A DNA stretch of 64,000 nucleotides from Minisyncoccota bacterium (GCA_016782605.1 JADHYE010000001.1:11128-75127), one strand, 5' to 3'. Positions 3,993 to 61,665 are shown, counted from the first letter of the stretch. Program-made: numbers and translations. Notes: a model not told the origin generated them from the letters alone.

Positions 3993-5021
3993 TTATTTGA
4001 AATACTTTACCTTAGCCGTATTGTGTTCGTCCAAGGTTTTGCTAAAAATAGTTTCTCCTTCCCTGGTGGAAAGATAATACCAGTAATCGCTATCTTGAAG
4101 ATAAACAGCAGCGATAATGCTTTCAAGTCCAGGATTACAAATCGGACCCAAGGGAAGCCCTTTGTATTTGTAAGTATTGTAGGGAGAATCAATTTCTGTA
4201 CCAGAAGCGATCTCTGATCTCATTTCGTCAAACGTCCAGTTTTCTTTTCCTAAGATATAAGCAATGGTGGCGCAGCTGCGCAAGGGTTCGCTATTCTCAA
4301 TCTTTCCCCAGAAAATGCCAGAAACTATTTTTTTGTCCTCCAAAGTTATTACTTCCTTCTCAAGAATACTAGCCATGGTCACTATTTCAAAAATAGTTTT
4401 GCCTTGTTTCTTAATTTCCTCTCTTAATTCAGAATTCAATTTCTTATCGAAATTAATAAGCATTTTTTCAACAACGCTTTCCATGCTTTCTTTGCTGGTT
4501 TTCTCGTAAGTATCGGGAAAAAGATATCCTTCCAGACTTAAATTCTCAGGCTTATCTCTAAGAAAAGCAAAATCAGCAGAAAAATCTTTTGAAGAAGAAC
4601 CGGTTATCGGAGAACCGACCAATCCAAAAAAATCATCAGCCCCAAATAAACCTTTGCTTTCAAAATAAGAAGCGATATCCCTTAAACTCCATCCTTCAAT
4701 AATAGTGATCTTTTCCTTTATGACATTGCCGGAAAAAAGCTTGTCAGCAATCTGAGGCATATTCATTGAAGGAGACAAAATATATTCTCCTGCTTTTAAA
4801 TAAGAAGCCATTCCCACAGTCAAAACATAAACCCGGAAAACAGGAGACCACCTTATCAATCCCTGATTTTCCAAATTCAAGCCGATGTCCCTTGAACCCT
4901 GACCCTTTTCCACGCTGAAAATAACTTCTTTTTCAGAATTCTGTTCTACGGGCAAAATAACCAGCCAGGAAGCAATCAGAACAATAATAACGACAATAAT
5001 TAAAATTAAAGATTTTTTCAC
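3993..5021 (-). CDS. mltG: endolytic murein transglycosylase, YceG/MltG family
   Basis: N-terminal TM helix followed by a YceG-like domain. The ORF-track start (5033, TTG) lies inside repeat A1. GTG at 5021-5019 gives MKKSLILII.... Confidence 0.8.
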   Translation of the reverse strand: MKKSLILIIVVIIVLIASWLVILPVEQNSEKEVIFSVEKGQGSRDIGLNLENQGLIRWSPVFRVYVLTVGMASYLKAGEYILSPSMNMPQIADKLFSGNVIKEKITIIEGWSLRDIASYFESKGLFGADDFFGLVGSPITGSSSKDFSADFAFLRDKPENLSLEGYLFPDTYEKTSKESMESVVEKMLINFDKKLNSELREEIKKQGKTIFEIVTMASILEKEVITLEDKKIVSGIFWGKIENSEPLRSCATIAYILGKENWTFDEMRSEIASGTEIDSPYNTYKYKGLPLGPICNPGLESIIAAVYLQDSDYWYYLSTREGETIFSKTLDEHNTAKVKYFK

Positions 5022-5152
5022 CCCGTATATCAACCTCCAAGCATTTTCAATGCGAAAATATCCTGAAGGCTGTCTTTATTTAATAATATATTCAACATAA
5101 TAACTTTGTTTGAGATTTTAATACGAAGTATTCTGGAAGTTGTATTACGGGG
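5021..5152 (-). mobile_element. family A hairpin (MITE-like) element, copy A1
   Basis: 132 bp. Arms are ccccgtatatcaacctccaag / ctggaagttgtattacgggg. Flanking direct repeat ttca at 5017-5020 and 5153-5156 (TGAA in gene sense). Lies between the pcm stop and the mltG start. Confidence 0.7.
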
Positions 5153-5153
5153 T

Positions 5154-5789
5154 TCATTTTTTCAATAAAGGAACGAAAATAAACCCTGGATGTTCTTTTT
5201 CTTCAAAATCAGTTTCGTTCTTTTTAATTAAAAGCCAGATTGAAGAATCAACCGGAGCAACAATCCTGCCTCCGATTTTCAGCTGCTTTTTCCAAGAATC
5301 GGGAATATTAACAGCACTAGCAGATGCTAAAATCTTGTCAAACCCTTCGACAAACTCAGGGTGAGAGGAGATATTGGGATAACCGTTGTTTCCGTCAAGA
5401 CAGAAAAACTGAACAATCCCCTTTTTAACGAAATTATATTTTGAAACGTTTTTCTCGCCAAAGTCCTTCAATTCCTGGATTATATCAAGGGAAATAACCT
5501 TTCCTTTTTTACCGACAATTTCAGCTAACAAAGCGCTGGTCCAGCCAGAGCCTGAACCAACATCCAAAACCTTATCCCCTTCATGCAAATCCAGCAATTC
5601 CATCATAAAAGCAACAACCAAAGGCTGAGAAATGGTCTGGCCGAATCCTATAGGCAAAGCCTCGTTGATCTCTGCTAAATTCTTTGAGTCTTCCGGCAAA
5701 AAATCGCTTCTCTTTATTTTTTTAAAAGCTTCTATCACTTTCGGCGTTTTCAGCCAGTTATCTTTAATTAGCTCTTCAATAAGCGGCAT
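5154..5789 (-). CDS. pcm: protein-L-isoaspartate O-methyltransferase
   Basis: 211 aa with a SAM-binding motif (VLDVGSGSGW) and a GQTISQP motif typical of Pcm. Confidence 0.85.
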   Translation of the reverse strand: MPLIEELIKDNWLKTPKVIEAFKKIKRSDFLPEDSKNLAEINEALPIGFGQTISQPLVVAFMMELLDLHEGDKVLDVGSGSGWTSALLAEIVGKKGKVISLDIIQELKDFGEKNVSKYNFVKKGIVQFFCLDGNNGYPNISSHPEFVEGFDKILASASAVNIPDSWKKQLKIGGRIVAPVDSSIWLLIKKNETDFEEKEHPGFIFVPLLKK

Positions 5790-12111: not shown

Positions 12112-12276
12112 CTAACGCTTCCCTTCTTTGTGCAAGGTATGCTTTCTGCACCATTTGCAGAATTTCTTAAAACCCAACTTCTTCTCAACAGCTTCCTTTG
12201 ATTTCTTAGTAAAGTAATTAACCCTTTTGCATTCCTGGCATTGAAGTTTAGTAAATGGTCTTTTTTTAGCTGCCAT
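12112..12276 (-). CDS. rpmG: 50S ribosomal protein L33
   Basis: Hand translation gives MAAKKRPFTKLQCQECKRVNYFTKKSKEAVEKKLGFKKFCKWCRKHTLHKEGKR* (54 aa, CxxC...CxxC). Below the ORF-track cutoff. Confidence 0.85.
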   Translation of the reverse strand: MAAKKRPFTKLQCQECKRVNYFTKKSKEAVEKKLGFKKFCKWCRKHTLHKEGKR

Positions 12277-13347: not shown

Positions 13348-13348
13348 A

Positions 13349-13480
13349 CCCTGTATATCAACATCCAGGCATTTTCAATGCGAAAACACCCTGAAGATTG
13401 TCTTTATTTAATAATATATTTAACATAATAACTTTGTTTGAGATTTTAATACGAAGTATTCTGGATGTTGTATTACGGGG
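13349..13480 (-). mobile_element. family A element, copy A2
   Basis: 132 bp, flanked by cata at 13345-13348 and 13481-13484. 13347-13345 is the trmD ATG. Confidence 0.7.
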
Positions 13481-13544
13481 CATAAAAACAAAAACGGCCT
13501 ATTTTGAACAATAGCACCGTTTTTGCACTCTGTAAACTTAGAGT

Positions 13545-13981: not shown

Positions 13982-14440
13982 TCATTTTTCAACTTCTTTT
14001 TTCTCTTTAACCTTCTCTTCTTTTTTCTCTTCGGCAGGTTCAGTTTTAATTTCTTCAACAGCCGCTTCAGCCGGCGCTACAACTTCAGCTTGTTTAGGCG
14101 AAGCCTCAACAGGTTTCTCAACAGGTTTCTCTTCGTGCCTCTCCGGCACATCCGCCGGAGAGGCGGACTTTTTTGATTTTTTATGCAAAGCAATCTTTTT
14201 CCCTTCAATGATTTTCTGAGAAATCAGCATATTATGGATGGTTTCAGAAGGATGGGCGCCGACTGAAATCCAGTATTTTATCCTTTCTGCCTTTAATTTC
14301 TTCTCTTTTGTCAAAGGATTATAAAAACCGACTTCTTCAATATATCTTCCTGAAGTCGAAGATTTCTCTTTTTCGACCACCACTATCTTGAATGATGGCT
14401 GATTCTTTTTTCCTGTTCTTAATAATCTAATAACTAACAT
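13982..14440 (-). CDS. rpsP: 30S ribosomal protein S16 with a Lys/Glu/Pro-rich C-terminal extension
   Basis: N-terminus MLVIRLLRTGKKNQPSFKIVV... is canonical S16. About 70 extra low-complexity residues follow. Confidence 0.9.
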   Translation of the reverse strand: MLVIRLLRTGKKNQPSFKIVVVEKEKSSTSGRYIEEVGFYNPLTKEKKLKAERIKYWISVGAHPSETIHNMLISQKIIEGKKIALHKKSKKSASPADVPERHEEKPVEKPVEASPKQAEVVAPAEAAVEEIKTEPAEEKKEEKVKEKKEVEK

Positions 14441-15693: not shown

Positions 15694-15978
15694 CTATTTT
15701 TTGCTGAGACCTTCCCAGCTCAAAGGTTTTTTAGCTGAAGCTTTTTCATCCTTACCCTCAATCTCCTTTTCTTTCTTTTTTCTTGCTTTTCGGTCCAGCT
15801 TCTTTAAAACGTCAATCACTTCAACTCCCTTGTAATATCCGCAATTCAAACAAACAACGTGGGGCAAAACAGGTTTGCCGCATTTTACACACTTAGTTAA
15901 AACAGGCGCCTTTATGTGAATATGCATGCGGCGCTTGTTTCTTCTTGATTTGGTGTGTTTTTGTTTTGGAACAGCCAT
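15694..15978 (-). CDS. rpmF: 50S ribosomal protein L32 with a Lys-rich C-terminal extension
   Basis: [17 protein letters not shown]... and a zinc ribbon CVKCG...CLNCG. Confidence 0.8.
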
Positions 15979-47112: not shown

Positions 47113-47113
47113 A

Positions 47114-47245
47114 CCCTGTATATCAACATCCAGGCATTTTCAATGCGAAAACACCCTGAAGATTGTCTTTATTTAATAATATATTTAACATAATAACTTT
47201 GTTTGAGATTTTAATACGAAGTATTCTGGATGTTGTATCACGGGG
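47114..47245 (-). mobile_element. family A element, copy A5
   Basis: 132 bp, flanked by cata at 47110-47113 and 47246-47249. 47112-47110 is the rseP ATG. Confidence 0.7.
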
Positions 47246-47249
47246 CATA

Positions 47250-47810
47250 TTATTCTGATATTTCTTTTTTCTTATTCTCTCCCATTTCTTCTATCTTTTT
47301 ATTGTAATCGTCAACCAACTCCTGAAGCTCGTCTTTAGCCCGGAACTTGTCATCCTCCCTGATTTCTCCCTGTTTTGTTTTATCCTGGATTTCACTCCAA
47401 ACCTCTTCCCTCCACTTTCTAATAGTCCTTCTTGACTGTTCTTCTTTTTCCGCAATGGTCCTGGTTAAATTCTTCCTGTATTCTTCGTTCAAAGGCGGCA
47501 AATTAATCCTGACTGCATCCTTGTCAACAATTGGATTAGCGCCGATTCCCGTCTTTTCCAAAGCTGAAACAATGCCTTCGATATAAGACTTATCCCAAGG
47601 CTGAATTAAAATCTGCTTTGCCTCAGGTGTAGAAATGGCAGCCAATTGTTTTAAAGGAAACTTCTGGCCGAAACAGTCAACAACAACATCCTCCACCAAA
47701 GAAGGCGTTGCCCTGCTGGTACGAATCTTATTCATTTCCTTTTCTAAAAAGCCGATTACCTTGTCTAATTCCGGTTTAATATTTTGAATGATTGTTTTGT
47801 AGCTATCCAT
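47250..47810 (-). CDS. frr: ribosome recycling factor
   Basis: 186 aa, Frr-like throughout (..IRTSRATPSLVE..). Confidence 0.95.
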   Translation of the reverse strand: MDSYKTIIQNIKPELDKVIGFLEKEMNKIRTSRATPSLVEDVVVDCFGQKFPLKQLAAISTPEAKQILIQPWDKSYIEGIVSALEKTGIGANPIVDKDAVRINLPPLNEEYRKNLTRTIAEKEEQSRRTIRKWREEVWSEIQDKTKQGEIREDDKFRAKDELQELVDDYNKKIEEMGENKKKEISE

Positions 47811-47811
47811 A

Positions 47812-47943
47812 CCCTGTGTATCAACATCCAGGCATTTTCAATGCGAAAACATCCTGAAGATTGTTTTTATTTAATAATATATTTAACATAATAACTTTGT
47901 TTGAGATTTTAATACGAAGTATTCTGGATGTTGTATTACGGGG
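47812..47943 (-). mobile_element. family A element, copy A6
   Basis: 132 bp, flanked by cata at 47808-47811 and 47944-47947. 47810-47808 is the frr ATG. Confidence 0.7.
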
Positions 47944-47951
47944 CATAAAAA

Positions 47952-52265: not shown

Positions 52266-53570
52266 ATGACCAAAAAGACAAAAACAATACTGTTTTTAGC
52301 CTGCTTACTTGCATTCATCCTGTTAGCTCCCTCAATAGTCCTGTACTCCCAAGGATACAGAATTGATTTTAATCCTCCAGAAGGCGGAAAAATGATTACC
52401 CAAACCGGAGGCCTTTTTTTGAAAGTCACGCCCAAACAAACAGATATTTATATTGACGGCAAACCTAAAAAAAGAACTGATTTTCTATTCGGTTCTGTTT
52501 TAATTGAAAACCTCATTCCTGGAAAGTACAAAGTAGAAATCAAAAAATTAACCAGCCAGGAAGAATACTATCCCTGGGAGAAAAACCTGGAAATACGGGA
52601 AAAACAGGTAACTGAAGCCAAGAACGTTGTCCTTTTCCCGAAAAACGTTAATTTCAACGTCTTATCAACCAACGTAGAACAGCTTTGGCTTTCTCTGGAC
52701 CAAAAGAAACTAATCTTAAAGGAAAATGAAAAAGCCAGCTGGTCCTTAAAGCTTTACGACCCGGAAAAGAATATAAAAAGCTATTTAATAAGCGACGAGG
52801 ATTTCTTCACGAAAGAACCCCAATTAATCAATCTGAAATTCTCGGGAGACTCAAGAAGTATTAATCTGGAAGTCAGCATAAAAGAAGCAATACAATCTTT
52901 TTCTCTGCAACTTGACCAAGCAAAACCAACTTTAAATAAAAAAACAGCAGCCACAACGACAACTGGAAACGCTGCTATCTCGCAACAAGCAGGCAATGAT
53001 ATATATTATCTGGACAGTTTCGGCTATCTTTTCAGGAATAAAGAAAAGCTGGCAGAAACTCCCTTTCAAACAAAACAAGAAACAGAATATGCTTTAGATA
53101 TTTTCAACGGCAACATATTCTTAAAAGAAAACGACAAACTGTACAAATTCAATTACAATCTGAAAACATTTGAACATTTCTTTGACGGAATCAATATCTT
53201 AAAGCTTTCTCCGGACAATAAAAAACTGCTTTACGCTTCAAACAATGAAATGTGGATTCTTTTCCTGGAAGACAAAATCGACCAGCCGCAGAAAAAATCA
53301 GGAGAGAAAATCTTTTTAATCCGCTTATCAGACCAAATCACAAGCATCTCCTGGATAAACGACAATTACCTGGCTTTTCTTGCCGGCAATACCGTTAAAA
53401 TCATTGAAATAGACGACAGGGACAGAATAAACGTTATAGACATCTTTGAAACAAAAAACCTCCCTCAAGAAGGAAGCATTAATGAAATGTCCTGGAACAG
53501 GTTTGACAATAAAATCTATCTCTTGGACGAAAACGGCTATTTATATAGCTCTAACGTCCTGCTCCCGTAA
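52266..53570 (+). CDS. hypothetical membrane-anchored protein with a PEGA-like domain and a C-terminal propeller-like region
   Basis: 434 aa. N-terminal TM helix, and TDIYIDGKPKKRT...PGKYKVEIKK resembling PEGA. Confidence 0.5.
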   Translation: MTKKTKTILFLACLLAFILLAPSIVLYSQGYRIDFNPPEGGKMITQTGGLFLKVTPKQTDIYIDGKPKKRTDFLFGSVLIENLIPGKYKVEIKKLTSQEEYYPWEKNLEIREKQVTEAKNVVLFPKNVNFNVLSTNVEQLWLSLDQKKLILKENEKASWSLKLYDPEKNIKSYLISDEDFFTKEPQLINLKFSGDSRSINLEVSIKEAIQSFSLQLDQAKPTLNKKTAATTTTGNAAISQQAGNDIYYLDSFGYLFRNKEKLAETPFQTKQETEYALDIFNGNIFLKENDKLYKFNYNLKTFEHFFDGINILKLSPDNKKLLYASNNEMWILFLEDKIDQPQKKSGEKIFLIRLSDQITSISWINDNYLAFLAGNTVKIIEIDDRDRINVIDIFETKNLPQEGSINEMSWNRFDNKIYLLDENGYLYSSNVLLP

Positions 53571-54269
53571 TTTGATTTTCTTTTTAAAAGCTTCCCAGCC
53601 CATTTCTCCGGTATTGGCTATAACGCAAACTTCCTTGAACTGGCAATAACGACACTGCCAATTATCGGGGTAATCCGATAATCTGTCGGGAATAACGTTC
53701 TTATCAATCTTCTTTCTAATACCAGCCAAAAAGTCCAAAAGAGAAAGGGCGCATTTTTTATCGTATTTTACGACAAAATCCTTCAGCTGCTGGTTATCTT
53801 TATTAACGTAAAGCAGTATTCCTTTAGGAATCTTAAAATAATGGAGATAAAGCTGAAGCTGAGCAATATTTTCCTCCTTTGGCTCAGTTAACTTACCAAA
53901 AATCATGCTGTTCATACTTTTAATATCCAAAACATATAGTTCCTTGCCATCGCTGATTATGGCATCAGCCCTGCCTGAAATCAGTTCCTGAGGAGGAATA
54001 TTAACTTCGGCAGCCACCACATGGATTTCCCTGGTGCTCAAAAGCGGCTTCATAATAAGCTGATGGATGTGGTCGCCATGGTCAAACAGCCTTAGAATAT
54101 TGGCCTCCATCTCCTTTCTGGGAACATTCTTGAACTTAAAAAACAAAGCTCTGCCGCATTTGCCTGCGTCAGTAATATAAAAGTGATGCTGCTCTTTATC
54201 TCTTTGCCTGTCCAAATAGAATTTATCGATTATATCTTTAAGAAACATAGAGTTTATCTCTTCTGCCAC
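53541..54269 (-). CDS. PD-(D/E)XK nuclease with a Cas4-like 4-Cys arrangement
   Basis: One N-terminal Cys (DAGKCGRA), a D..DIK catalytic-type motif, QLQLY, and C-terminal CRYCQFKEVC (Cx2Cx5C). Confidence 0.6.
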   Translation of the reverse strand: MAEEINSMFLKDIIDKFYLDRQRDKEQHHFYITDAGKCGRALFFKFKNVPRKEMEANILRLFDHGDHIHQLIMKPLLSTREIHVVAAEVNIPPQELISGRADAIISDGKELYVLDIKSMNSMIFGKLTEPKEENIAQLQLYLHYFKIPKGILLYVNKDNQQLKDFVVKYDKKCALSLLDFLAGIRKKIDKNVIPDRLSDYPDNWQCRYCQFKEVCVIANTGEMGWEAFKKKIKLREQDVRAI

Positions 54270-54739
54270 TGAGGAGCACGACGAGCGCGCTTCAATCCGA
54301 ACTTCTTTCTTTCCCTCATCCTCGGGTCTCTTTTCAAAAAACCAGCTTTTTTCAACTGTTTCCTCAATTCTGGATCGAATAAAACTAAAGCGCGAGTTAA
54401 ACCGTGCCTGACAGCTTCAGCCTGGGAAGTCGTCCCTCCCCCTTTAACTTTTACTGAAACCTGAAATTTGTCAGAATAATCAGTCAAAATCAAAGGAGAA
54501 AAAATAATACGCTGAAGGTATTTTGTCGGAAAATAATTTTCAAAAGTCCTTGTATTTATTAAAAAGGTCTTTTCTTTTTGAACAGAAATTCTCACCCTGG
54601 CTACAGCTGTCTTTCTCCTGCCTATGCCCTCAAAATACCTGGCTACTTTAGGTTTAACTGTTACTTTGGCAGTTTTTTTAGCTGGAGCTTTTTTGACTTT
54701 CTTTACTGTTTCTTTTTTTGTTTTTTTAGCCTTTGGCAT
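54254..54739 (-). CDS. rpsI: 30S ribosomal protein S9 with a Lys-rich N-terminal extension
   Basis: C-terminus ..RERKKFGLKRARRAPQWQKR is canonical S9. The ORF-track start (54760) runs into repeat A7. ATG at 54739 gives MPKAKKTKK... Confidence 0.9.
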   Translation of the reverse strand: MPKAKKTKKETVKKVKKAPAKKTAKVTVKPKVARYFEGIGRRKTAVARVRISVQKEKTFLINTRTFENYFPTKYLQRIIFSPLILTDYSDKFQVSVKVKGGGTTSQAEAVRHGLTRALVLFDPELRKQLKKAGFLKRDPRMRERKKFGLKRARRAPQWQKR

Positions 54740-54740
54740 A

Positions 54741-54872
54741 CCCCGTATATCAACATCCAAGCATTTTCAATGCGAAAACACTCTGAAGGCTGTTTTTATT
54801 TAATAATATATTCAACATAATAACTTTGTTTGATATTTTAATACGAAGTATTCTGGATGTTGTATTACAGGG
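54741..54872 (-). mobile_element. family A element, copy A7
   Basis: 132 bp, flanked by cata at 54737-54740 and 54873-54876. The rplM stop codon (54867-54865) lies inside the element. Confidence 0.7.
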
Positions 54873-55215
54873 CATATTTTAATCTTTTAATCATTTTTGC
54901 TCTTAATTTATTCTTGGGCAGCATGCCAAAAACCGCTTTCCTCAAAACTTCTTCCGGATTCTTCTCAAATAACTTCTCCAAAGTTATCTCCTTCAAGCTT
55001 CCCAGATATCCAGAATGACGGTAGTATTTCTTCTGTTTGGCTTTTTTGCCGGTGAATTTCAACTTATCAACGTTTTGGACAATAACAACATCGCCGATAT
55101 CTTTGTACGGCGCAAAGTCTGCTTTCTGTTTCCCCCTCAAAAGCAAAGCTATTTCAACAGCCAGTCTGCCTAAAACCTTATCAGTAGCGTCTATTTTGTG
55201 GGTTTTGCGTTCCAT
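54865..55215 (-). CDS. rplM: 50S ribosomal protein L13
   Basis: 116 aa, L13-like (..VLGRLAVEIALLLRGK..). The last residues (..YAL*) are encoded by TATG plus element A7. Confidence 0.9.
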   Translation of the reverse strand: MERKTHKIDATDKVLGRLAVEIALLLRGKQKADFAPYKDIGDVVIVQNVDKLKFTGKKAKQKKYYRHSGYLGSLKEITLEKLFEKNPEEVLRKAVFGMLPKNKLRAKMIKRLKYAL

Positions 55216-55217
55216 AG

Positions 55218-55568
55218 TTATTTAACCAATTCTATTATGGCTATTTTGGCAGCATCTACTTTTCTTTGGCCAAGCTTAATAATCCTGGTATATCCTCCTT
55301 TTCTTTCTTTGAATCTCGGGGCGATCTCATCAACCAATTTCTTAACCACTTTTCCAGTAAAAAACTTTGCCAATAATCTGCGCGAAGCCAAAGTGCCGAC
55401 TTTCGCTTTGGTAATCTTTTTTTCAACGAAAGAGGAAACCTCTTTTGCCTTAGCTTCTGTTGTTTTAACTTTTTCTTTCAATATCAAAGCAGCAGCTAAA
55501 GATCTTAAAAGAGCGTTTCTTTGGTCTTTTTCCCTATTTAGTTTTTTCCCTTTTTTTCTTTTTCTCAT
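55218..55568 (-). CDS. rplQ: 50S ribosomal protein L17
   Basis: 116 aa with ..GYTRIIKLG.R..D.A..A.IEL typical of L17. Confidence 0.9.
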   Translation of the reverse strand: MRKRKKGKKLNREKDQRNALLRSLAAALILKEKVKTTEAKAKEVSSFVEKKITKAKVGTLASRRLLAKFFTGKVVKKLVDEIAPRFKERKGGYTRIIKLGQRKVDAAKIAIIELVK

Positions 55569-56364
55569 TTTTTACTTTTTTGCTTACTGCTTTCTTTTCT
55601 TTTTTCGGCTTCTTGGCCGCTTTTTTCTTTTCTTTGTCTTCCGGTTCTACAGATGCAGCTTTCGGCTGGAAAGCTGTAGCCAGCAACGAAAAGTGGCTAA
55701 TCAAAATTTCCGAAGCCTGATAAAATGCCTGTTCCGGATCGATAATGCCGTCTGTTTCAATTTCCAGAAACAATCTGTCAAAGTCAGTTCTTTCTCCGAC
55801 ACGCATATTCTCAACCCTGGAACTTACCCTTTTTACAGGAGTAAAGCTGGCATCCAGCAGAATAGCTCCTATCTCTAATTTTTCAGGCATGGAGCCTGCT
55901 GTTTTTTTCCTTGTTTCGCGGCTGGAATAGCCAATTCCCTTTTCAATCTGGATTTCCATTTCCAGTTCAGCGGATTTTGAATTCAAAGTGGCAATATGGC
56001 AGTTTTTATTTACCAATTCCACTTGGCTGGGCAGCTTGAAATCAAAGCCCTTCACTGCTTTTTCTCCCTTAACTTTCAGGGTCGCTTTCTGTGGCTCGTC
56101 GCTAAAAAGCTTAAATCTCAATTGCTTCAAATTAAGCATTATAGTGATAACGTCTTCTAAAACTCCTGAAATCGTTGAGAACTCATGGGAAACTCCCTTG
56201 ATTTTGACTTGGGTAATAGCAGCTCCTTCAAGCGAAGAAAGCAAAACCCTTCTCAAAGAATTGCCGACGGTTACTCCGTAGCCAGGACGCAAAGCTTCTA
56301 TTTCAAAAACAGCTTTGTTCCCTTCTTTTTTAACTATTTTGGGAGCGTGAGGTAAATTAATCAT
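55534..56364 (-). CDS. rpoA: DNA-directed RNA polymerase alpha subunit, N-terminal domain only, plus a Lys-rich tail
   Basis: About 235-aa alpha-NTD (..GNSLRRVLLSSL..) followed by a ~40-aa KKEK-rich tail. No alpha-CTD-like sequence. Confidence 0.9.
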   Translation of the reverse strand: MINLPHAPKIVKKEGNKAVFEIEALRPGYGVTVGNSLRRVLLSSLEGAAITQVKIKGVSHEFSTISGVLEDVITIMLNLKQLRFKLFSDEPQKATLKVKGEKAVKGFDFKLPSQVELVNKNCHIATLNSKSAELEMEIQIEKGIGYSSRETRKKTAGSMPEKLEIGAILLDASFTPVKRVSSRVENMRVGERTDFDRLFLEIETDGIIDPEQAFYQASEILISHFSLLATAFQPKAASVEPEDKEKKKAAKKPKKEKKAVSKKVKNEKKKKREKTK

Positions 56365-56422
56365 ATAGCGAGTCCCGCAACAACGGGACGAAGGTTAAGA
56401 AGAGGATGAATTCCTCTTCGAT
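56365..56422 (-). repeat. two-hairpin intergenic module related to the nusB-rnc unit
   Basis: atagcgaGTCCCGcaacaaCGGGACgaaggttaaGAAGAGGatgaattCCTCTTCgattta fills the whole rpsD-rpoA spacer. Same architecture as 15138-15202 with different stem sequences. Confidence 0.6.
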
Positions 56423-57052
56423 TTATTTTGAGTAAAACTCGAAAATTGCGGAGAGTTCTGCCGGTGGGACAGCCTCTTCTAAATTTGGTGAATCGATGAC
56501 CTTTGCCTCCAGCTTCTCAGCGTCTAATTTGAGCCAAGACGGAGGATTATATTTTTTTAAAGTAGATGATAATTTCTGGAAAATTGTTTTTTTTAAAGAA
56601 TTGGGGTTAACGCTTATTTTGTCCCCTTTCTTAACCAGATAGCTGGAAATATTAATCGGCCTGTCGTTAACCATAAGATGGCTGTGGGAAACCATTTGTC
56701 TGGCAGCAAATTTGGAAGGAGCGAAACCTAATCTGAAAACTACATTGTCCAAGCGGCTCTCCAAAGTTTTAATTAAAGCAGCGCCGGCATCCGTCACCTT
56801 TCCCCTGGCCTTTAAAATATCTTTGACGTAGTTCCTGAATTGCTTCTCTTCCAAATTATACCAGTTCTTTAATTTTTGTTTTTCCCTTAATTCTTTACCG
56901 TATTCAGAAAGCGATTTCACTCTTTTTTTAGCTTTTGGCCCTGGCGGATAAGGTTTTTTGATCATTGGGCATTTCTGCGATGAGCACCTTTCGCCTCTCA
57001 AAAAAAGCTTAATTCCTGCACGACGGCAAATTTTGCATTTAGAAACATTCAT
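56423..57052 (-). CDS. rpsD: 30S ribosomal protein S4
   Basis: 209 aa with an N-terminal zinc-ribbon-like CKICRR..C segment and an S4 domain. Confidence 0.95.
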   Translation of the reverse strand: MNVSKCKICRRAGIKLFLRGERCSSQKCPMIKKPYPPGPKAKKRVKSLSEYGKELREKQKLKNWYNLEEKQFRNYVKDILKARGKVTDAGAALIKTLESRLDNVVFRLGFAPSKFAARQMVSHSHLMVNDRPINISSYLVKKGDKISVNPNSLKKTIFQKLSSTLKKYNPPSWLKLDAEKLEAKVIDSPNLEEAVPPAELSAIFEFYSK

Positions 57053-57053
57053 A

Positions 57054-57185
57054 CCCTGTATATCAACATCCAGGCATTTTCAATGCGAAAATATCCTGAA
57101 GGCTGTCTTTATTTAATAATATATTTAACATAATAACTTTGTTTGATATTTTAATACGAAGTATTCTGGATGTTGTATTACAAGG
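57054..57185 (-). mobile_element. family A element, copy A8
   Basis: 132 bp, flanked by cata at 57050-57053 and 57186-57189. 57052-57050 is the rpsD ATG. Confidence 0.7.
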
Positions 57186-57192
57186 CATAAGT

Positions 57193-57642
57193 TTATACCC
57201 TTCTTACTTTTGGCTTACGACAGCCGTTATGCGGAACTGGAGTCATATCCTTAATTGAAACTATTTCCAAACCCCTGGCAGCCAATGACCTAATAGCTGA
57301 ATCTCTGCCAGAACCTATCCCCTTTACGAAAATCTCTATCTTTTCAATCCCTATTTTCTCGGCAATCTGGACGATTGCTTCAGCTACCTTGGAAGCAGCA
57401 AAAGGCGTTGCTTTTTTTGCTCCTTTGAAACCGATATTGCCAGCGCTAGTCCAGCCCAAAACATTACCCTTTGGATCTGTCAAAGTAAGGATGGTGTTGT
57501 TATAAGAAGAAGCAATGTAAATTCTGCCCTCTTGTATCCTTTTAAGGGTTTCTTTGGCCTGCTCTTTCACTTTCGTTTCCATGGCTTCACCTTCTTTCAA
57601 AATCTCTTCTTCAGTTTGTCGTATAACACGTTTTTTACCCAT
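57193..57642 (-). CDS. rpsK: 30S ribosomal protein S11
   Basis: C-terminus ..DMTPVPHNGCRKPKVRRV is canonical S11. Confidence 0.95.
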   Translation of the reverse strand: MGKKRVIRQTEEEILKEGEAMETKVKEQAKETLKRIQEGRIYIASSYNNTILTLTDPKGNVLGWTSAGNIGFKGAKKATPFAASKVAEAIVQIAEKIGIEKIEIFVKGIGSGRDSAIRSLAARGLEIVSIKDMTPVPHNGCRKPKVRRV

Positions 57643-57794: not shown

Positions 57795-58184
57795 TTATGT
57801 AGGTCCCGGAGGCGGCTTTCTGCCAGAACCAACTGTCTTTCTTATATTTCCCCTGGCAGTTCTCGTATTGGTTTTGGTTCTCTGCCCCCGCACAGGCAGG
57901 CCTTTAATGTGCCTGATGCCTATCCAGGTTCCTGCGTCCTTCAACCTTTTAATATTCATCATAATTTCTCTTTTCAAATCGCCCTCTGTCTTATAATTCT
58001 TCTCAATAATGTCTTTTAAGGTAGACACTTCCTGAGTGGTCAATTCTGAAGCTTTTTTTGTTTCTCCAATACCAGCTTCCTCTAAAATTTTCTTGCTCAA
58101 AGAGCGGCCTATTCCGAAAATATAGGTTAGGGCTATTTGTATTTGTTTTTTTTCAGGGATGTTAATCCCGGCAATACGTGGCAT
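57795..58184 (-). CDS. rpsM: 30S ribosomal protein S13
   Basis: MPRIAGINIPEKK.. is canonical S13. Confidence 0.95.
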   Translation of the reverse strand: MPRIAGINIPEKKQIQIALTYIFGIGRSLSKKILEEAGIGETKKASELTTQEVSTLKDIIEKNYKTEGDLKREIMMNIKRLKDAGTWIGIRHIKGLPVRGQRTKTNTRTARGNIRKTVGSGRKPPPGPT

Positions 58185-58603: not shown

Positions 58604-59905
58604 CTAATCAATGACCAGATTGAATTTAATCTTACTTAGGTCTTCTGGCACCTTATTGACCCAGAATGGCCAAAACTTGACGCTGGCCCTGGTAATCTTA
58701 GGATAGTTTTCCAAGAAGAGCTTAGCCTCGAGCAAAGACTTTCCTTTTAAGGCGTTTTTAAAGCTGAAAATGTCAACGTCAGCATAGATTTTAGCTGAAA
58801 TTGTCAAAGAAACAGCAATTTTGCCGGTCTCTAAATCAACATCGTCAATAGAATAATTTATTTTCAAACTTTCCTCATAAAGCTTTTTATCCTGGGGAAT
58901 TTGAAAAGTAATCGCTTCTTTAACGTAATTCCTAATATCTTCTTTCTTAAACACTACGACTTGGCATTGCGCTTTCACCTGATAATTAAAGTCTTTTGCT
59001 TCTGTTTCAGCAGAAGTCAAAGAAAAGTTCTCAATAATTTCTGTCTGGATGCTGTCTGGCAAATAATCGAACTTGGAAGAAATCGCTTCTGACTGCAGTT
59101 CTTTCTGCAGCAGTTCATTGCATTCTTTCTCCGCTTGTTTTGTTAAAGTTTCTTCAGCTTGAGATAAATCCTTTTCTGTCACTTTAGCAATTTCTTCATG
59201 GAAGCCGCCTGCCATTGCTTCAAAAGATTCGCCGTAGAATTTAGTATACCTGTCTGTGCCGGCAAATCCCGGTACGGAGAACTTGGTCAAAGCGATATTG
59301 TATTCTTCGCCAGGCTGATCTGCCACCACTTTTACATCTATTTCTCCTGGAACAAGCTTTCCTTTCTCATAAGTACCTCCAGGAACAGTAACTTTGATTG
59401 GCGTGCGGAATACCTTTCCGTCAGCTGAAACAAAACGGGTAGTGGCTATTAAAACCTGCTGCGAAGTTGAATAGGCATTGTACACTTTTATTGTGCCTTG
59501 CGCCTTCTCCTCTTTCATAATTTTACCGGAAGCCGGAAAAGTCTGAACAATGGTTTTTTCTTTCTGAAGCGTTTCTGCCGGAATAATCTTTAAAAGAGAA
59601 TCAATAGCTGTTGCGTTTTTGTCGATATTCGTTTCTTCTATAAGATTAAAAACTTCTGTCTCCGGCCAAACGCTTATTTCAGCTTTAGACAAAGCAATGT
59701 AGCAAAACGCTCCCAATAAAACCAAAAAAAGCAAAGAAAAAGTCAAACCCTTTTTAAAGGGTGGATTAGGAGCTTTTTTAGGAAAACCCCACAAAGGAAC
59801 CTTGGGCTTTTGCTCTAGTTCTATCTTTACTTCTGGCTCTTTGTGCTCCTCCTTTTTTTTCTCTTTTTTCGAAGGAGGGAAAACGTCTATTACTTTTTTG
59901 CTCAT
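58604..59905 (-). CDS. hypothetical membrane-anchored protein
   Basis: 433-aa ORF with a Lys-rich N-terminus and one TM helix. No family recognised. Confidence 0.45.
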   Translation of the reverse strand: MSKKVIDVFPPSKKEKKKEEHKEPEVKIELEQKPKVPLWGFPKKAPNPPFKKGLTFSLLFLVLLGAFCYIALSKAEISVWPETEVFNLIEETNIDKNATAIDSLLKIIPAETLQKEKTIVQTFPASGKIMKEEKAQGTIKVYNAYSTSQQVLIATTRFVSADGKVFRTPIKVTVPGGTYEKGKLVPGEIDVKVVADQPGEEYNIALTKFSVPGFAGTDRYTKFYGESFEAMAGGFHEEIAKVTEKDLSQAEETLTKQAEKECNELLQKELQSEAISSKFDYLPDSIQTEIIENFSLTSAETEAKDFNYQVKAQCQVVVFKKEDIRNYVKEAITFQIPQDKKLYEESLKINYSIDDVDLETGKIAVSLTISAKIYADVDIFSFKNALKGKSLLEAKLFLENYPKITRASVKFWPFWVNKVPEDLSKIKFNLVID

Positions 59906-60006: not shown

Positions 60007-61665
60007 TTATTCCAAAACAGCTCTGATCCTTCTAATGCCAGCGCTGGAAGATTCTTCCTTAACAATCTTGAAATGGCCGAGCTCGCCAGTGCGGCGAACG
60101 TGAGGTCCGCCGCATATTTCCTTTGAAAAATCGCTGATACTGTAAACTTTTACTTTCTCTTCATATTTATCTTCGAAAACTCCGGTCGCTCCCTTCCCCT
60201 TCGCTTCCTCTAAACTCATTTTTTCACAGACCACAGGCAAATCCTCTTTGATTTTCTGGTTAACAATCTCTTCAACTTCTTTAATCTCTTTTTCTGTCAT
60301 CTTTCCTGGATGAACAAAATCAAATCTTAATCTCTCAGTTGTGATATTGCTTCCTTTTTGAGAAACCTGGTTGCCTAAAACCTGCCTCAAGGCAGCTAAC
60401 AACAAATGATTAGCAGTGTGATATTCAACTACTTGCTCAGAATTATCAGCTAATCCTCCTTTGAACATGCCAGAAGAAGAAGTTCTTGAAAGGTCCTGAT
60501 GTTCTTTGAACTTTTTATTAAATTCTTCCACGTTAATATCCCTCCCTCTTTCTTTAGCCAATTCTAAGGTCAATTCTAAAGGAAACCCGTAACTGGTATA
60601 TAATTCAAAAGCGTCTGTGCCTTTTTCAAACTGTTTCAATCCCTCCTCTAATGTCTTCTCAAATTTCTCCTCTTCATTTTGAATTGCTGTTAAAATATCA
60701 GTTTCTTTTGATTTCAACTCAGGATAAACATCTGTGTACATTTCAATCGCTTTTTGAGCTAAAGGAATCAAGAAATTCTCCGGCAAATTAAGCAGTTTGC
60801 CATATCTTATCGCCCTCCTTAAAACTCTTCTCAAAACGTATCCTCTTTCAACATTAGAAGGTAGAATCCCGTCTGAAATTAAAAAAACCGAGCCCTTAAC
60901 ATGATCAGAGATAATTCTTTTTGCTCTTTCATTATCACCCGGAATCTCATTAATAATCGGTAAAAACAAATCAGTCTCAAAAACTGATTTTTTGCCCTGA
61001 ACAACCGTTGCTAATCTCTCTAATCCCATACCAGTATCAACGCCTTTCTGTTTTAAAGAAGTAAGTTTTCCTGTTTTATCCTGGTAATATTCGTTAAATA
61101 CCAGATTCCAAACTTCAATACCGTTAAAATGAATTTCAGTTGTCGGGCCGCAAGGCCCCTCTTCGCCTGTCGGTCCCCAGAAATTATCTTCCCTGCCGCA
61201 CTTTTTAATTTTATTCTCCGGAACACCAAGTTTTTGCCAAATCTCAGATGACTCTTTATCCTCAGAGACCTTCCCATCTCCTTCAAAAACAGTAAAAACA
61301 GCCTTATCTAATGGCAGTTTCAACTCTTTAAAAAGAAATTCATAAGCCAATTTTATCGCTTCCTTTTTAAAATATCCTCCGAAAGAAAAATTTCCAAGCA
61401 TTTCCAAAAAAGTCAAATGGCTATCATCTCCCACCTCTTCAATATCTGACGTCCTGAAGCACTTCTGGCAGGAACAGACATTCTGGCCAAGAGGAGATTT
61501 TTCACCGAGATAATACGGCTTGAACTGCTGCATGCCGGCCGTAGTAAACAAAACACTTGTGTCAGTCGGTATAAGCGAAGAGGAAGGCACTATTTTGTGT
61601 CCCTTTTTTTCAAAAAATTCTAAAAACTTTCTCCTCAGGTCTTTTGAGTTCATTAAAGTTTCCAT
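60007..61665 (-). CDS. alaS: alanine--tRNA ligase, short form lacking the usual C-terminal region (552 aa)
   Basis: Class II AlaRS catalytic domain, then editing-type HxxxH (HTANHLLLAAL) and CGGPHV motifs. Much shorter than typical bacterial AlaRS. Confidence 0.85.
   Translation of the reverse strand: METLMNSKDLRRKFLEFFEKKGHKIVPSSSLIPTDTSVLFTTAGMQQFKPYYLGEKSPLGQNVCSCQKCFRTSDIEEVGDDSHLTFLEMLGNFSFGGYFKKEAIKLAYEFLFKELKLPLDKAVFTVFEGDGKVSEDKESSEIWQKLGVPENKIKKCGREDNFWGPTGEEGPCGPTTEIHFNGIEVWNLVFNEYYQDKTGKLTSLKQKGVDTGMGLERLATVVQGKKSVFETDLFLPIINEIPGDNERAKRIISDHVKGSVFLISDGILPSNVERGYVLRRVLRRAIRYGKLLNLPENFLIPLAQKAIEMYTDVYPELKSKETDILTAIQNEEEKFEKTLEEGLKQFEKGTDAFELYTSYGFPLELTLELAKERGRDINVEEFNKKFKEHQDLSRTSSSGMFKGGLADNSEQVVEYHTANHLLLAALRQVLGNQVSQKGSNITTERLRFDFVHPGKMTEKEIKEVEEIVNQKIKEDLPVVCEKMSLEEAKGKGATGVFEDKYEEKVKVYSISDFSKEICGGPHVRRTGELGHFKIVKEESSSAGIRRIRAVLE

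What the first reader, a model, noticed from the sequence alone, without database searches (positions are those of the whole stretch)
55534..56364. RpoA consists of the N-terminal domain plus a ~40-residue Lys-rich tail, with no alpha-CTD
The 276-aa protein aligns as alpha-NTD up to ..SHFSLLATAFQ. It then ends in AASVEPEDKEKKKAAKKPKKEKKAVSKKVKNEKKKKREKTK, and the tail-coding region overlaps rplQ by 35 nt.

Nothing resembles the helix-hairpin-helix alpha-CTD that contacts UP elements and activators.

Similar Lys-rich low-complexity extensions occur on S16 (C-terminal), L32 (C-terminal) and S9 (N-terminal) in this window. A polycationic tail could be a crude substitute for AT-rich DNA contacts.
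Basis: partly seen in the sequence, partly recalled or inferred. Interest (0 to 1): 0.55.

Follow-up and report, generated by a model that had tools for sequence, protein, structure and literature searches.

The report
RNA polymerase alpha without its DNA-binding domain
This candidate-phyla-radiation bacterium makes an RNA polymerase alpha subunit that keeps only the assembly domain and ends in a disordered lysine-rich tail, and related lineages lost the same DNA- and activator-contacting domain independently, often ending instead in a basic tail or a canonical AT-hook.

Summary
The ORF at 55534-56364 (-) is a genuine 276-aa rpoA in the conserved rpsM-rpsK-rpsD-rpoA-rplQ-rplM-rpsI operon.

- **Structure:** residues 1-233 are a complete, confidently folded alpha-NTD. 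Residues 234-276 are a disordered tail (20 Lys of 43, net +14). Its last 35 nt overlap rplQ.
- **No alpha-CTD:** none is detectable in the ORF or in any frame of the 64-kb window. The rest of the genome could not be searched.
- **Not an artefact:** all 120 closest homologues lack the CTD and carry a net-positive tail.
- **Distribution:** 12 of 79 usable related species-representative genomes are CTD-less. They are scattered among CTD-bearing sisters, implying at least four independent losses.
- **Linkers:** those of CTD-bearing relatives are acidic.
- **AT-hook clade:** in a second CTD-less clade (Falkowbacteria-like), 104 of 120 proteins end in an acidic linker plus a canonical AT-hook (KKRGRPKK).

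Against it, part of the tail is dictated by the rplQ overlap, one relative has no tail, and Lys-rich extensions are common in this lineage.

Published notice of the loss is a single unsupported sentence. I rate this a new variant of a known kind, with interest 0.6.

The parts
55534..56364 (-). rpoA coding sequence (276 aa plus TAG stop)
   Evidence: ORF list and sequence. TIGR02027 scores 250.4, above its cutoff. It is 100% identical to a protein named RNA polymerase subunit alpha from a 'Candidatus Pacebacteria bacterium' MAG.
55666..56364 (-). alpha-NTD (residues 1-233): dimerisation domain plus insert domain, the platform on which beta and beta' assemble
   Evidence: PF01193 and PF01000 are matched at full length. 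The region aligns to solved alpha subunits up to about residue 229-232. AlphaFold2 pLDDT is mostly above 90 and the last helix is 210-231.
55537..55665 (-). Lys-rich disordered tail (residues 234-276), PKAASVEPEDKEKKKAAKKPKKEKKAVSKKVKNEKKKKREKTK
   Evidence: 47% K, net +14, coding DNA 60% A. pLDDT is below 50 with no secondary structure. A net-positive tail is present in 120 of 120 close homologues.
55534..55568 (-). 35-nt rpoA/rplQ overlap. The last 11 tail residues (NEKKKKREKTK) and the TAG stop are read from L17 codons 1-12 (MRKRKKGKKLNR) in another frame.
   Evidence: Sequence. The same -35 overlap occurs in L001 and L007, but not in L002, L003 or L005.
55218..55568 (-). rplQ (ribosomal protein L17), immediately downstream. 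It leaves no room for a CTD.
   Evidence: PF01196. The S11-S4-rpoA-L17-L13 order is conserved in all loci examined.
56423..57052 (-). rpsD (S4), upstream neighbour in the alpha operon
   Evidence: PF00163 and PF01479.

Best explanation
What it is: this is the organism's normal rpoA, and it encodes a naturally CTD-less alpha subunit.

Assembly (inferred from family knowledge): the intact alpha-NTD dimerises and nucleates beta/beta' assembly as in every bacterial RNA polymerase.

Promoter use (inferred from family knowledge): the enzyme has no alpha-CTD. It therefore cannot read UP elements through the helix-hairpin-helix domain and cannot be recruited by activators that dock on alpha-CTD. Promoter use must rest on sigma contacts, and on regulators that touch sigma or DNA.

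Origin (shown by comparison): the CTD-coding segment was deleted in an ancestor of this clade.

The tail (inference only; about 0.45): what follows the NTD is a roughly 43-residue intrinsically disordered polylysine tail, two per enzyme. Its most likely role is a sequence-unspecific electrostatic tether to upstream, AT-rich promoter DNA. That would make it a minimal replacement for the alpha-CTD/UP contact. The evidence is compositional conservation, convergence after independent CTD losses, and the AT-hook carried at the same position by another CTD-less clade.

Overlap (shown from the sequence): the last 11 residues are additionally fixed by the overlap with rplQ.
For: 1. CTD absent, NTD intact.
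- A CTD HMM built here from CTD-bearing relatives hits 96 of 150 distant representatives and 0 of 120 close homologues.
- Its best hit in six frames of the window is E=0.8.

2. Not an artefact.
- The 120 closest database proteins (68-100% identity, 249-306 aa) all show only PF01000 and PF01193.
- rplQ starts inside the tail.

3. Recurrent loss.
- Of 80 species-representative loci, 68 have a CTD, 12 lack it, and one of the 68 (L041) only looked CTD-less because of an N-run.
- CTD-less and CTD-bearing genomes are sisters with bootstrap support: L009/L012 at 100, L007/L004 at 89-94, and L057 and L050 inside a 100%-supported clade with L076, L036 and L049.

4. Tail under selection for charge.
- All 120 tails are net positive (+5 to +24), with K fraction interquartile range 0.36-0.42, while sequence and length vary.
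- Linkers of CTD-bearing relatives are acidic: median net -5, and only 1 of 67 is net positive.
- Basic termini also occur where there is no rplQ overlap, in L002, L003 and L005.

5. AT-hook clade.
- 120 of 120 homologues of P0187 lack a CTD.
- 104 of 120 end in [KR]x?RGRP[KR] after an acidic linker of 35-55 aa.
- In this clade rpoA stops 120-240 nt before rplQ, so an overlap cannot explain the motif. The Arg codons differ synonymously between loci.
- None of the 96 CTD-bearing representatives has RGRP.

6. Precedent for an RNAP-tethered AT-hook acting on promoter DNA: WhiB7 (PMC8786299).
Against: - No experiment has been done, and no TSS or promoter data exist for this organism.
- The window protein has no RGRP core. 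SPKK-like motifs are not enriched beyond what composition predicts (48 observed against 42 +/- 6 in shuffles).
- The last 11 residues are imposed by L17's N-terminus read in another frame.
- One close relative (L006, 68% identity) has a 225-aa RpoA with no tail at all. Others have weakly charged or acidic tails (L013, L037, L050, L057).
- Lys-rich extensions also decorate S9 and L32 here and S9 in the nearest relatives. An Ala/Lys-rich extension of uS19 is reported for Parcubacteria (PMC9297842). The tail may therefore reflect a general lineage habit.
- Only 64 kb of the genome could be searched for a separate CTD.
Confidence: 0.55

Rival explanations
1. The CTD loss is real, but the tail is a functionless by-product. 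After the deletion the reading frame ran on through A-rich DNA into the start of rplQ. Lys-richness then reflects A-rich low-complexity drift or slippage, plus the overlap with L17's basic N-terminus. On this view the polymerase simply has no upstream contact.
For: - The last 11 residues are the out-of-frame reading of MRKRKKGKKLNR.
- The tail DNA is 60% A and 7% T, so stop codons are rare by composition.
- No sequence motif is enriched.
- L006 works without any tail, and L057 has an acidic one.
- Similar Lys-rich extensions occur on S9 and L32 and in relatives.
Against: - Lys and Glu codons are one mutation away from a stop. Even so, 120 of 120 homologues diverged to 68% identity keep an open, net-positive tail of at least 26 residues.
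- Basic termini arise in lineages without the rplQ overlap.
- They also arise in independent losses whose CTD-bearing sisters have non-basic linkers, for example L012 against L009.
- The AT-hook clade shows that selection acts on exactly this position.
Confidence: 0.28
2. The tail is selected for something other than promoter DNA contact. Candidates are keeping rpoA translation running up to the rplQ start (translational coupling), binding RNA or the ribosome, or general solubility and nucleoid association.
For: - The rpoA stop lies within -35 to +27 nt of the rplQ start in all 12 genuinely CTD-less loci.
- Lys-rich extensions sit on ribosomal proteins in the same genome.
Against: - In the AT-hook clade rpoA stops 120-240 nt before rplQ, so coupling is not general.
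- Coupling does not demand positive charge.
- An AT-hook is a DNA minor-groove motif.
Confidence: 0.1
3. An alpha-CTD is still made, from a separate gene or a second full-length rpoA paralogue outside the window.
For: - Only 64 kb was searchable.
- Short PF03118-only ORFs sit directly upstream of rplQ, with no NTD coding sequence in the 82-331 nt before them, on three small metagenome contigs of related organisms (L082, L083, L085).
- Francisella is known to have two alpha genes (PDB 6wmp 'alpha 1').
Against: - No CTD in six frames of the window, nor within +/-3 kb of rpoA in 12 CTD-less genomes.
- The three stand-alone cases keep the CTD at the ancestral site, which is empty here.
- In the 79 of 80 larger metagenome loci with sequence upstream of a similar CTD, the NTD lies upstream in the same frame, so the stand-alone ORFs are rare and may be assembly breaks.
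Confidence: 0.05
4. Sequencing or assembly artefact: a frameshift or truncation of a normal rpoA.
For: Homopolymer A runs in the tail are frameshift-prone. Such artefacts do exist in relatives (L041 and L084, which have N-runs or frameshifts).
Against: - There is no space for a CTD, because rplQ begins inside the tail.
- The identical architecture appears in 120 independent database proteins and several species genomes.
Confidence: 0.01

Closest known systems
Laboratory C-terminal truncations of E. coli alpha (alpha 1-235 or 1-256; Hayward, Igarashi & Ishihama 1991; Ross et al. 1993, as cited in PMC8321222)
   Same: An NTD-only alpha suffices for alpha2-beta-beta' assembly and basal transcription. 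It lacks UP-element and activator-dependent stimulation. The NTD boundary is the same (E. coli residues 21-227 align with query 15-224).
   Different: This one is natural, clade-wide and fixed, and it carries a 43-residue polycationic tail in place of the linker and CTD.
Naturally CTD-less alpha subunits of extreme endosymbionts (Hodgkinia, Tremblaya) and Euglena plastids, plus a one-line mention of 'Parcubacteria' (PMC8321222)
   Same: The NTD is retained and the CTD lost in reduced genomes. The window organism belongs to the Parcubacteria/Paceibacteria part of the candidate phyla radiation.
   Different: - The Parcubacteria statement cites a paper whose main text never mentions RNA polymerase.
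- Most Parcubacteria examined here keep the CTD (68 of 80 loci).
- The recurrent loss and the replacement by basic tails or AT-hooks are not described in that paper.
CTD-less RpoA with a C-terminal AT-hook in a Falkowbacteria-like Patescibacteria clade
   Same: NTD only, followed by a flexible low-complexity linker and a basic DNA-binding terminus. Same operon position. 44-45% NTD identity to the window protein.
   Different: The linker is acidic and the terminus is a conserved KKRGRPKK motif. The window protein has no RGRP and is basic throughout. The two clades are not recovered as neighbours (weakly supported placement), so the losses are probably independent.
WhiB7 of mycobacteria: an AT-hook tethered to RNA polymerase through sigma-A region 4 (PMC8786299)
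   Same: A short basic peptide held on the polymerase contacts AT-rich DNA upstream of -35. This is the proposed way the tail works.
   Different: WhiB7 is a separate, regulated transcription factor bound to sigma. It is not a permanent part of alpha.
Archaeal RpoD and eukaryotic Rpb3/AC40
   Same: Homologues of the alpha-NTD that never carry an alpha-CTD.
   Different: The window protein is clearly bacterial. The archaeal subunit D model NF001988 scores only 24 bits against a cutoff of 153.
Ala/Lys-rich C-terminal extension of uS19 specific to Parcubacteria (PMC9297842)
   Same: A lineage-specific basic low-complexity extension on a nucleic-acid-binding protein. S9 and L32 in this window show the same habit.
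   Different: It sits on ribosomal proteins and adds to a complete protein. Here the extension takes the place of a lost domain.

Membership tests
Bacterial RNA polymerase alpha subunit (RpoA, TIGR02027) | N-terminal domain made of the RNA_pol_L dimerisation domain with the inserted RNA_pol_A_bac domain | tested here: met
   PF01193 at 5-74/74 and PF01000 at 1-119/119. AlphaFold2 pLDDT above 90. E=2.5e-53 to solved alpha subunits.
Bacterial RNA polymerase alpha subunit (RpoA, TIGR02027) | Whole-protein score above the curated equivalog cutoff | tested here: met
   TIGR02027 scores 250.4 against 227.8. The NF0035xx subfamily models all fall below their cutoffs because the last 70-90 model positions are unmatched.
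Bacterial RNA polymerase alpha subunit (RpoA, TIGR02027) | C-terminal helix-hairpin-helix domain (RNA_pol_A_CTD, PF03118) on a flexible linker | tested here: not met
   No PF03118 at E<=10. The custom CTD HMM finds nothing in the protein or in six frames of the window.
Bacterial RNA polymerase alpha subunit (RpoA, TIGR02027) | Position in the rpsM-rpsK-rpsD-rpoA-rplQ operon | tested here: met
   The order is conserved in all related loci examined.
Naturally CTD-less alpha subunits | Complete NTD, no CTD in the gene, and the feature shared by related genomes rather than a single truncated read | tested here: met
   120 of 120 close homologues and 12 species-representative genomes.
Naturally CTD-less alpha subunits | No CTD encoded anywhere else in the genome | not testable with these tools
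   Only the 64-kb window and +/-3 kb flanks of relatives could be scanned, and both were negative.
AT-hook DNA-binding motif | Core R-G-R-P flanked by Lys/Arg | tested here: not met
   No RGRP in the window protein or in any of its 120 close homologues. It is present in 104 of 120 members of the other CTD-less clade.
SPKK / histone-H1-like Lys-rich DNA-binding tails | Repeated (S/T)PKK or PxKK units beyond what composition predicts | tested here: not met
   48 motifs in 120 tails against 42.5 +/- 6.4 in residue shuffles.
SPKK / histone-H1-like Lys-rich DNA-binding tails | Intrinsically disordered, strongly net-positive terminal segment | tested here: met
   pLDDT below 50 with no secondary structure. 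Net +14.
Archaeal RNA polymerase subunit D | Score above the NF001988 cutoff | tested here: not met
   24.3 bits against 153.

The most novel reading that the evidence does not exclude
In Patescibacteria the alpha-CTD has been discarded at least four times. It has repeatedly been replaced by a minimal basic peptide on a flexible linker: a polylysine tail in this lineage and a conserved canonical AT-hook in a Falkowbacteria-like lineage. On this reading the peptide takes over the upstream AT-rich DNA contact. That would be a previously undescribed, convergently evolved architecture for promoter recognition by bacterial RNA polymerase. It would also be a natural experiment showing that alpha-CTD-dependent activation is dispensable.
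Probability: 0.4. Interest if true: 0.75.

Novelty: new variant of a known kind. Interest (0 to 1): 0.6.

Why it matters
The alpha-CTD is treated as universal in bacteria. [quoted passage not shown] It is the docking site for UP elements and for a large share of known activators.

A large, environmentally abundant group of bacteria has lost it repeatedly and put a lysine tail or an AT-hook in its place. If the tail works as proposed, three things follow:
- A whole class of regulation is absent from these organisms.
- The upstream DNA contact itself is still worth keeping in the cheapest possible form.
- Promoter models and activator predictions built on E. coli should not be transferred to these genomes.

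The AT-hook and poly-Lys variants give directly testable constructs, such as E. coli alpha(1-235) fusions and synthetic peptides.

Tried and rejected
1. Frameshift or assembly artefact. Rejected: rplQ starts inside the tail, and 120 independent homologues share the architecture.

2. CTD elsewhere in the window. Pfam at E<=10 and a two-round custom CTD HMM on all six frames give a best E of 0.8.

3. Extending the searchable genome by looking up the proteins at the window ends. One was not on record and the other sat only on contigs of 1-3 kb.

4. Stand-alone CTD gene in relatives.
- A search with the CTD of the nearest CTD-bearing relative returned nine short PF03118-only proteins.
- Two are contig-end or frameshift/N-run artefacts (L081, L084).
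- Three (L082, L083, L085) do lack an upstream NTD, but lie on contigs of 0.8-2.5 kb.
- In 79 of 80 larger metagenome loci with similar CTDs the NTD lies upstream in frame.
- This is kept only as a weak lead.

5. Tail as a retained interdomain linker. Rejected as a general explanation: linkers of CTD-bearing relatives are acidic (1 of 67 net positive). Only L004 and a few representatives have Lys-rich linkers.

6. Remnant of CTD coding sequence in the tail DNA. None found: sister pairs L012/L009 and L004/L007 align only up to the NTD end and again from rplQ.

7. SPKK-like motif enrichment in the tails. Not found.

8. Taxon names through cluster members. Mostly unnamed.

9. NJ tree of NTDs of 141 representatives. 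Star-like and used only as a hint. It was replaced by bootstrapped five-protein trees.

10. Literature. Searches for CPR/Patescibacteria with rpoA, CTD, PF03118 or AT-hook found only the single sentence in PMC8321222.

Full report
**1.

- It lies in the conserved alpha operon. On the minus strand the order is rpsM 57795-58184, rpsK 57193-57642, rpsD 56423-57052, rpoA, rplQ 55218-55568, rplM 54865-55215 and rpsI.
- rplQ begins MRKRKKGKKLNR, a normal L17 N-terminus. The 35-nt overlap (55534-55568) is therefore real, and there is no room for a further domain.
- Pfam finds only the two alpha-NTD families, both at full length. PF03118 is absent even at E<=10.
- TIGR02027 passes its cutoff but matches only model positions 2-231 of 298.
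- Solved alpha subunits align with query residues about 15-232; E. coli residues 21-227 align with query 15-224.
- AlphaFold2 on a 22-sequence alignment folds residues 9-231 confidently, with a last helix at 210-231. Almost all of residues 241-276 have pLDDT below 50 and no secondary structure.

The tail (residues 234-276) has these properties:
- It holds 20 Lys, 1 Arg, 6 Glu and 1 Asp in 43 residues, so net +14.
- The Lys fraction in long ORFs of the window is 10.6%.
- The tail DNA is 60% A and 7% T.
- It contains the most Lys-dense 25-residue stretch in the window.

**2. It is neither an artefact nor an orphan**

- A protein 100% identical is deposited as RNA polymerase subunit alpha of a 'Candidatus Pacebacteria bacterium' MAG.
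- The 120 best database matches (68-100% identity, 249-306 aa) all carry PF01000 and PF01193 only.
- I built a CTD HMM from CTD-bearing relatives. It recognises 96 of 150 distant cluster representatives and none of the 120 close homologues. Its best hit in the six-frame translation of the whole 64-kb window is E=0.8.
The rest of the genome could not be obtained.

**3. How far the loss extends**

A scan of one genome per species returned 80 related loci, all with the S11-S4-rpoA-L17-L13 order.
- 68 loci have a CTD and 12 lack it. One of the 68, L041, was first called CTD-less only because of an N-run.
- None of the 12 CTD-less loci has a CTD in any frame within +/-3 kb.
- Most named Parcubacteria lineages keep the CTD (Nomura-, Kaiser-, Zambryski-, Taylor- and Azambacteria).
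- CTD-less genomes are scattered among them.

Bootstrapped neighbour-joining trees of five concatenated proteins give these groupings:

| Clade | CTD status of members | Bootstrap |
|---|---|---|
| L009 (Staskawiczbacteria) + L012 | CTD-less + CTD-bearing | 100% |
| L007 + L004 | CTD-less + CTD-bearing | 89-94% |
| L057, L050, L076, L036, L049 | first two CTD-less, the rest CTD-bearing | 100% |
| window + L002 + L001 | all CTD-less | 99% |

- Monophyly of the CTD-less members of the window's neighbourhood was recovered in 0-11% of replicates.
- This implies at least four independent losses. The caveat is that these are NJ trees on 813 columns.
- Sister pairs align at the DNA level up to the NTD end and again from rplQ. 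No CTD remnant lies between.

**4. What the tail is**

Part of it is mechanical. The last 11 residues and the TAG stop are L17 codons 1-12 read in another frame. The same -35 overlap occurs in L001 and L007.

The rest is not mechanical:
- L002, L003 and L005 have equally Lys-rich tails that stop 1-14 nt before rplQ.
- Across the 120 close homologues the tail varies in sequence and length (26-71 residues from the end of the NTD model). It is always net positive (+5 to +24), with a median Lys fraction of 0.39.
- Linkers of CTD-bearing relatives are acidic: median net -5, Asp+Glu 0.30, and 1 of 67 net positive. The tail is therefore not simply a leftover linker.
- Lys and Glu codons are one substitution from a stop. 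Persistence of an open basic tail over this divergence argues for selection. This step is inference.

Counter-examples exist:
- L006 (68% identity) has a 225-aa RpoA that ends at the NTD with an ATGA overlap onto rplQ.
- L057 has an acidic tail.
- L013, L037 and L050 are near neutral.

Lys-rich extensions also sit on other proteins:
- on S9 (N-terminal) and L32 (C-terminal) in this window;
- on S9 in the nearest relatives;
- on uS19 of Parcubacteria, where an Ala/Lys-rich extension is reported (PMC9297842).

**5. The key comparative result**

Three CTD-less cluster representatives end in KKRGRPKK. I therefore searched with one of them, P0187.
- All 120 best hits lack the CTD. They are labelled Falkowbacteria or 'Patescibacteria group' and share 63-100% identity.
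- 104 of the 120 end in [KR]x?RGRP[KR]. This is a canonical AT-hook core, placed at the very C-terminus after a variable acidic linker of 35-55 residues.
- The exceptions listed that have a tail end in Lys clusters.
- In this clade rpoA stops 120-240 nt before rplQ, so an overlap cannot explain the motif.
- No CTD remnant is present.
- The Arg codons differ synonymously between loci, AGG against CGA.
- None of the 96 CTD-bearing representatives contains RGRP.

AT-hooks bind the minor groove of AT-rich DNA and are rare in bacteria. The best-studied bacterial case, WhiB7, is a polymerase-tethered AT-hook that contacts promoter DNA (PMC8786299).

An independent CTD-less lineage therefore shows clear selection for a tethered AT-rich-DNA-binding peptide exactly where the CTD used to be. 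It does not prove it: the window clade has no RGRP and no enrichment of SPKK-like motifs.

**6. Mechanism proposed**

- Shown: an intact NTD, no CTD in the gene, a disordered polycationic tail, and clade-wide conservation of tail charge.
- From established knowledge of alpha (Hayward, Igarashi & Ishihama 1991 and Ross et al. 1993, as cited in PMC8321222 and PMC12641261): NTD-only alpha supports assembly and basal transcription but not UP-element or alpha-CTD-dependent activation.
- Inferred: the two tails per enzyme make non-specific electrostatic contacts with upstream DNA.

Rivals, with my confidence in each:
- a by-product tail (0.28);
- another role, such as translational coupling or RNA binding (0.10);
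- a CTD or second rpoA elsewhere in the genome (0.05);
- an artefact (0.01).

**7. What is known**

[quoted passage not shown] It cites a paper whose main text contains no occurrence of 'polymerase'.
- The same paper documents CTD loss in Hodgkinia and Tremblaya and cites Euglena plastids.
- Another recent paper states that the alpha-CTD is ubiquitous in Bacteria.
- Searches combining CPR/Patescibacteria with rpoA, CTD, PF03118 or AT-hook found nothing further.
- The bare loss is therefore a barely documented known kind.
- Its recurrence, the basic-tail replacement and the AT-hook variant appear to be undescribed in the searchable literature.

**8. Verdict**

- Observation: confirmed.
- Interpretation: partly supported.
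- Novelty: new variant of a known kind.
- Interest: 0.6.

Noticed in passing
window 5020-5162, 13348-13484, 41790-41927, 47113-47251, 47811-47947, 54740-54876, 57053-57189 (all read on the minus strand): A roughly 137-nt intergenic element occurs at least seven times in 64 kb, 92-95% identical and always in the gene orientation.
- In six copies its last base (...GATATAC(A/G)GGGT) directly abuts the ATG of the downstream gene: trmD, a 176-aa unknown, rseP-like M50, frr, rpsI and rpsD.
- It matches no Rfam family.
- It folds significantly (MFE -33.7 kcal/mol, z = -4.2), closed by TIR-like stems CAACATCCAG / CTGGATGTTG.
- It contains TTGAAA-N15-TATACA 4 nt before the ATG, which would give a leaderless mRNA if it is a promoter, with an A/T-rich stretch upstream.
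- It could be a mobile promoter or 5'-leader cassette, or a MITE.
- It is not present in the 80 related loci.
   Followed up: partly
P0187, P0155, P0224 and P0297-P0415; loci L168-L170: A large Falkowbacteria-like clade of CTD-less RpoA proteins ends in an acidic linker plus a canonical AT-hook (KKRGRPKK) at the C-terminus (104 of 120). The motif does not overlap rplQ. I found no description of it in the searchable literature.
   Followed up: yes
L082 243-431, L083 332-652, L085 83-316: On three small metagenome contigs of related organisms, short ORFs (62-106 aa) consist only of an alpha-CTD, some with a Lys-rich leader. They lie directly upstream of rplQ with no alpha-NTD coding sequence in the 82-331 nt before them. 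This could be a split rpoA or an insertion in the linker, or an assembly break. In 79 of 80 larger loci the NTD lies upstream of the CTD in frame.
   Followed up: partly
L006 2228-2905: A relative at 68% identity has a 225-aa RpoA that stops right at the end of the NTD, with a 4-nt ATGA overlap onto rplQ. It has neither a CTD nor a tail.
   Followed up: partly
window 54254-54760 (-): The TTG start that the ORF finder gives for rpsI lies inside the 137-nt repeat. The likely true start is the ATG at 54739 (MPKAKKTKK...), directly after the repeat. The Lys-rich N-terminal extension of S9 is then about 40 rather than 46 residues. Similar extensions occur in L001, L002 and L007.
   Followed up: partly
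window 13982-14440 (-), 15694-15978 (-): S16 carries a roughly 70-residue K/E/P/A-rich C-terminal extension and L32 a roughly 38-residue Lys-rich one. The ORF at 12112-12276 that looked Lys-rich is L33, not L32.
   Followed up: partly
window 60007-61665 (-): The alanyl-tRNA synthetase is only 552 aa. It has the catalytic domain (profile 2-452 of 552) and the editing-site SAD domain. No other family was reported for it at E <= 1e-5. This may be another domain loss in this genome.
   Followed up: no
window 53541-54269 (-): A PD-(D/E)XK / Cas4-like nuclease gene (weak Pfam hits) follows rpsI and overlaps its 3' end by 16 nt. Between AlaRS and rpsM lies a 433-aa protein (58604-59905) with no clear family and a Lys-rich N-terminus.
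   Followed up: no
window 56365-56422: The short rpsD-rpoA spacer holds two perfect hairpins, gaagaggaattcatcctcttc and gtcccgttgttgcgggac, just before the rpoA start. There is no obvious Shine-Dalgarno sequence.
   Followed up: no
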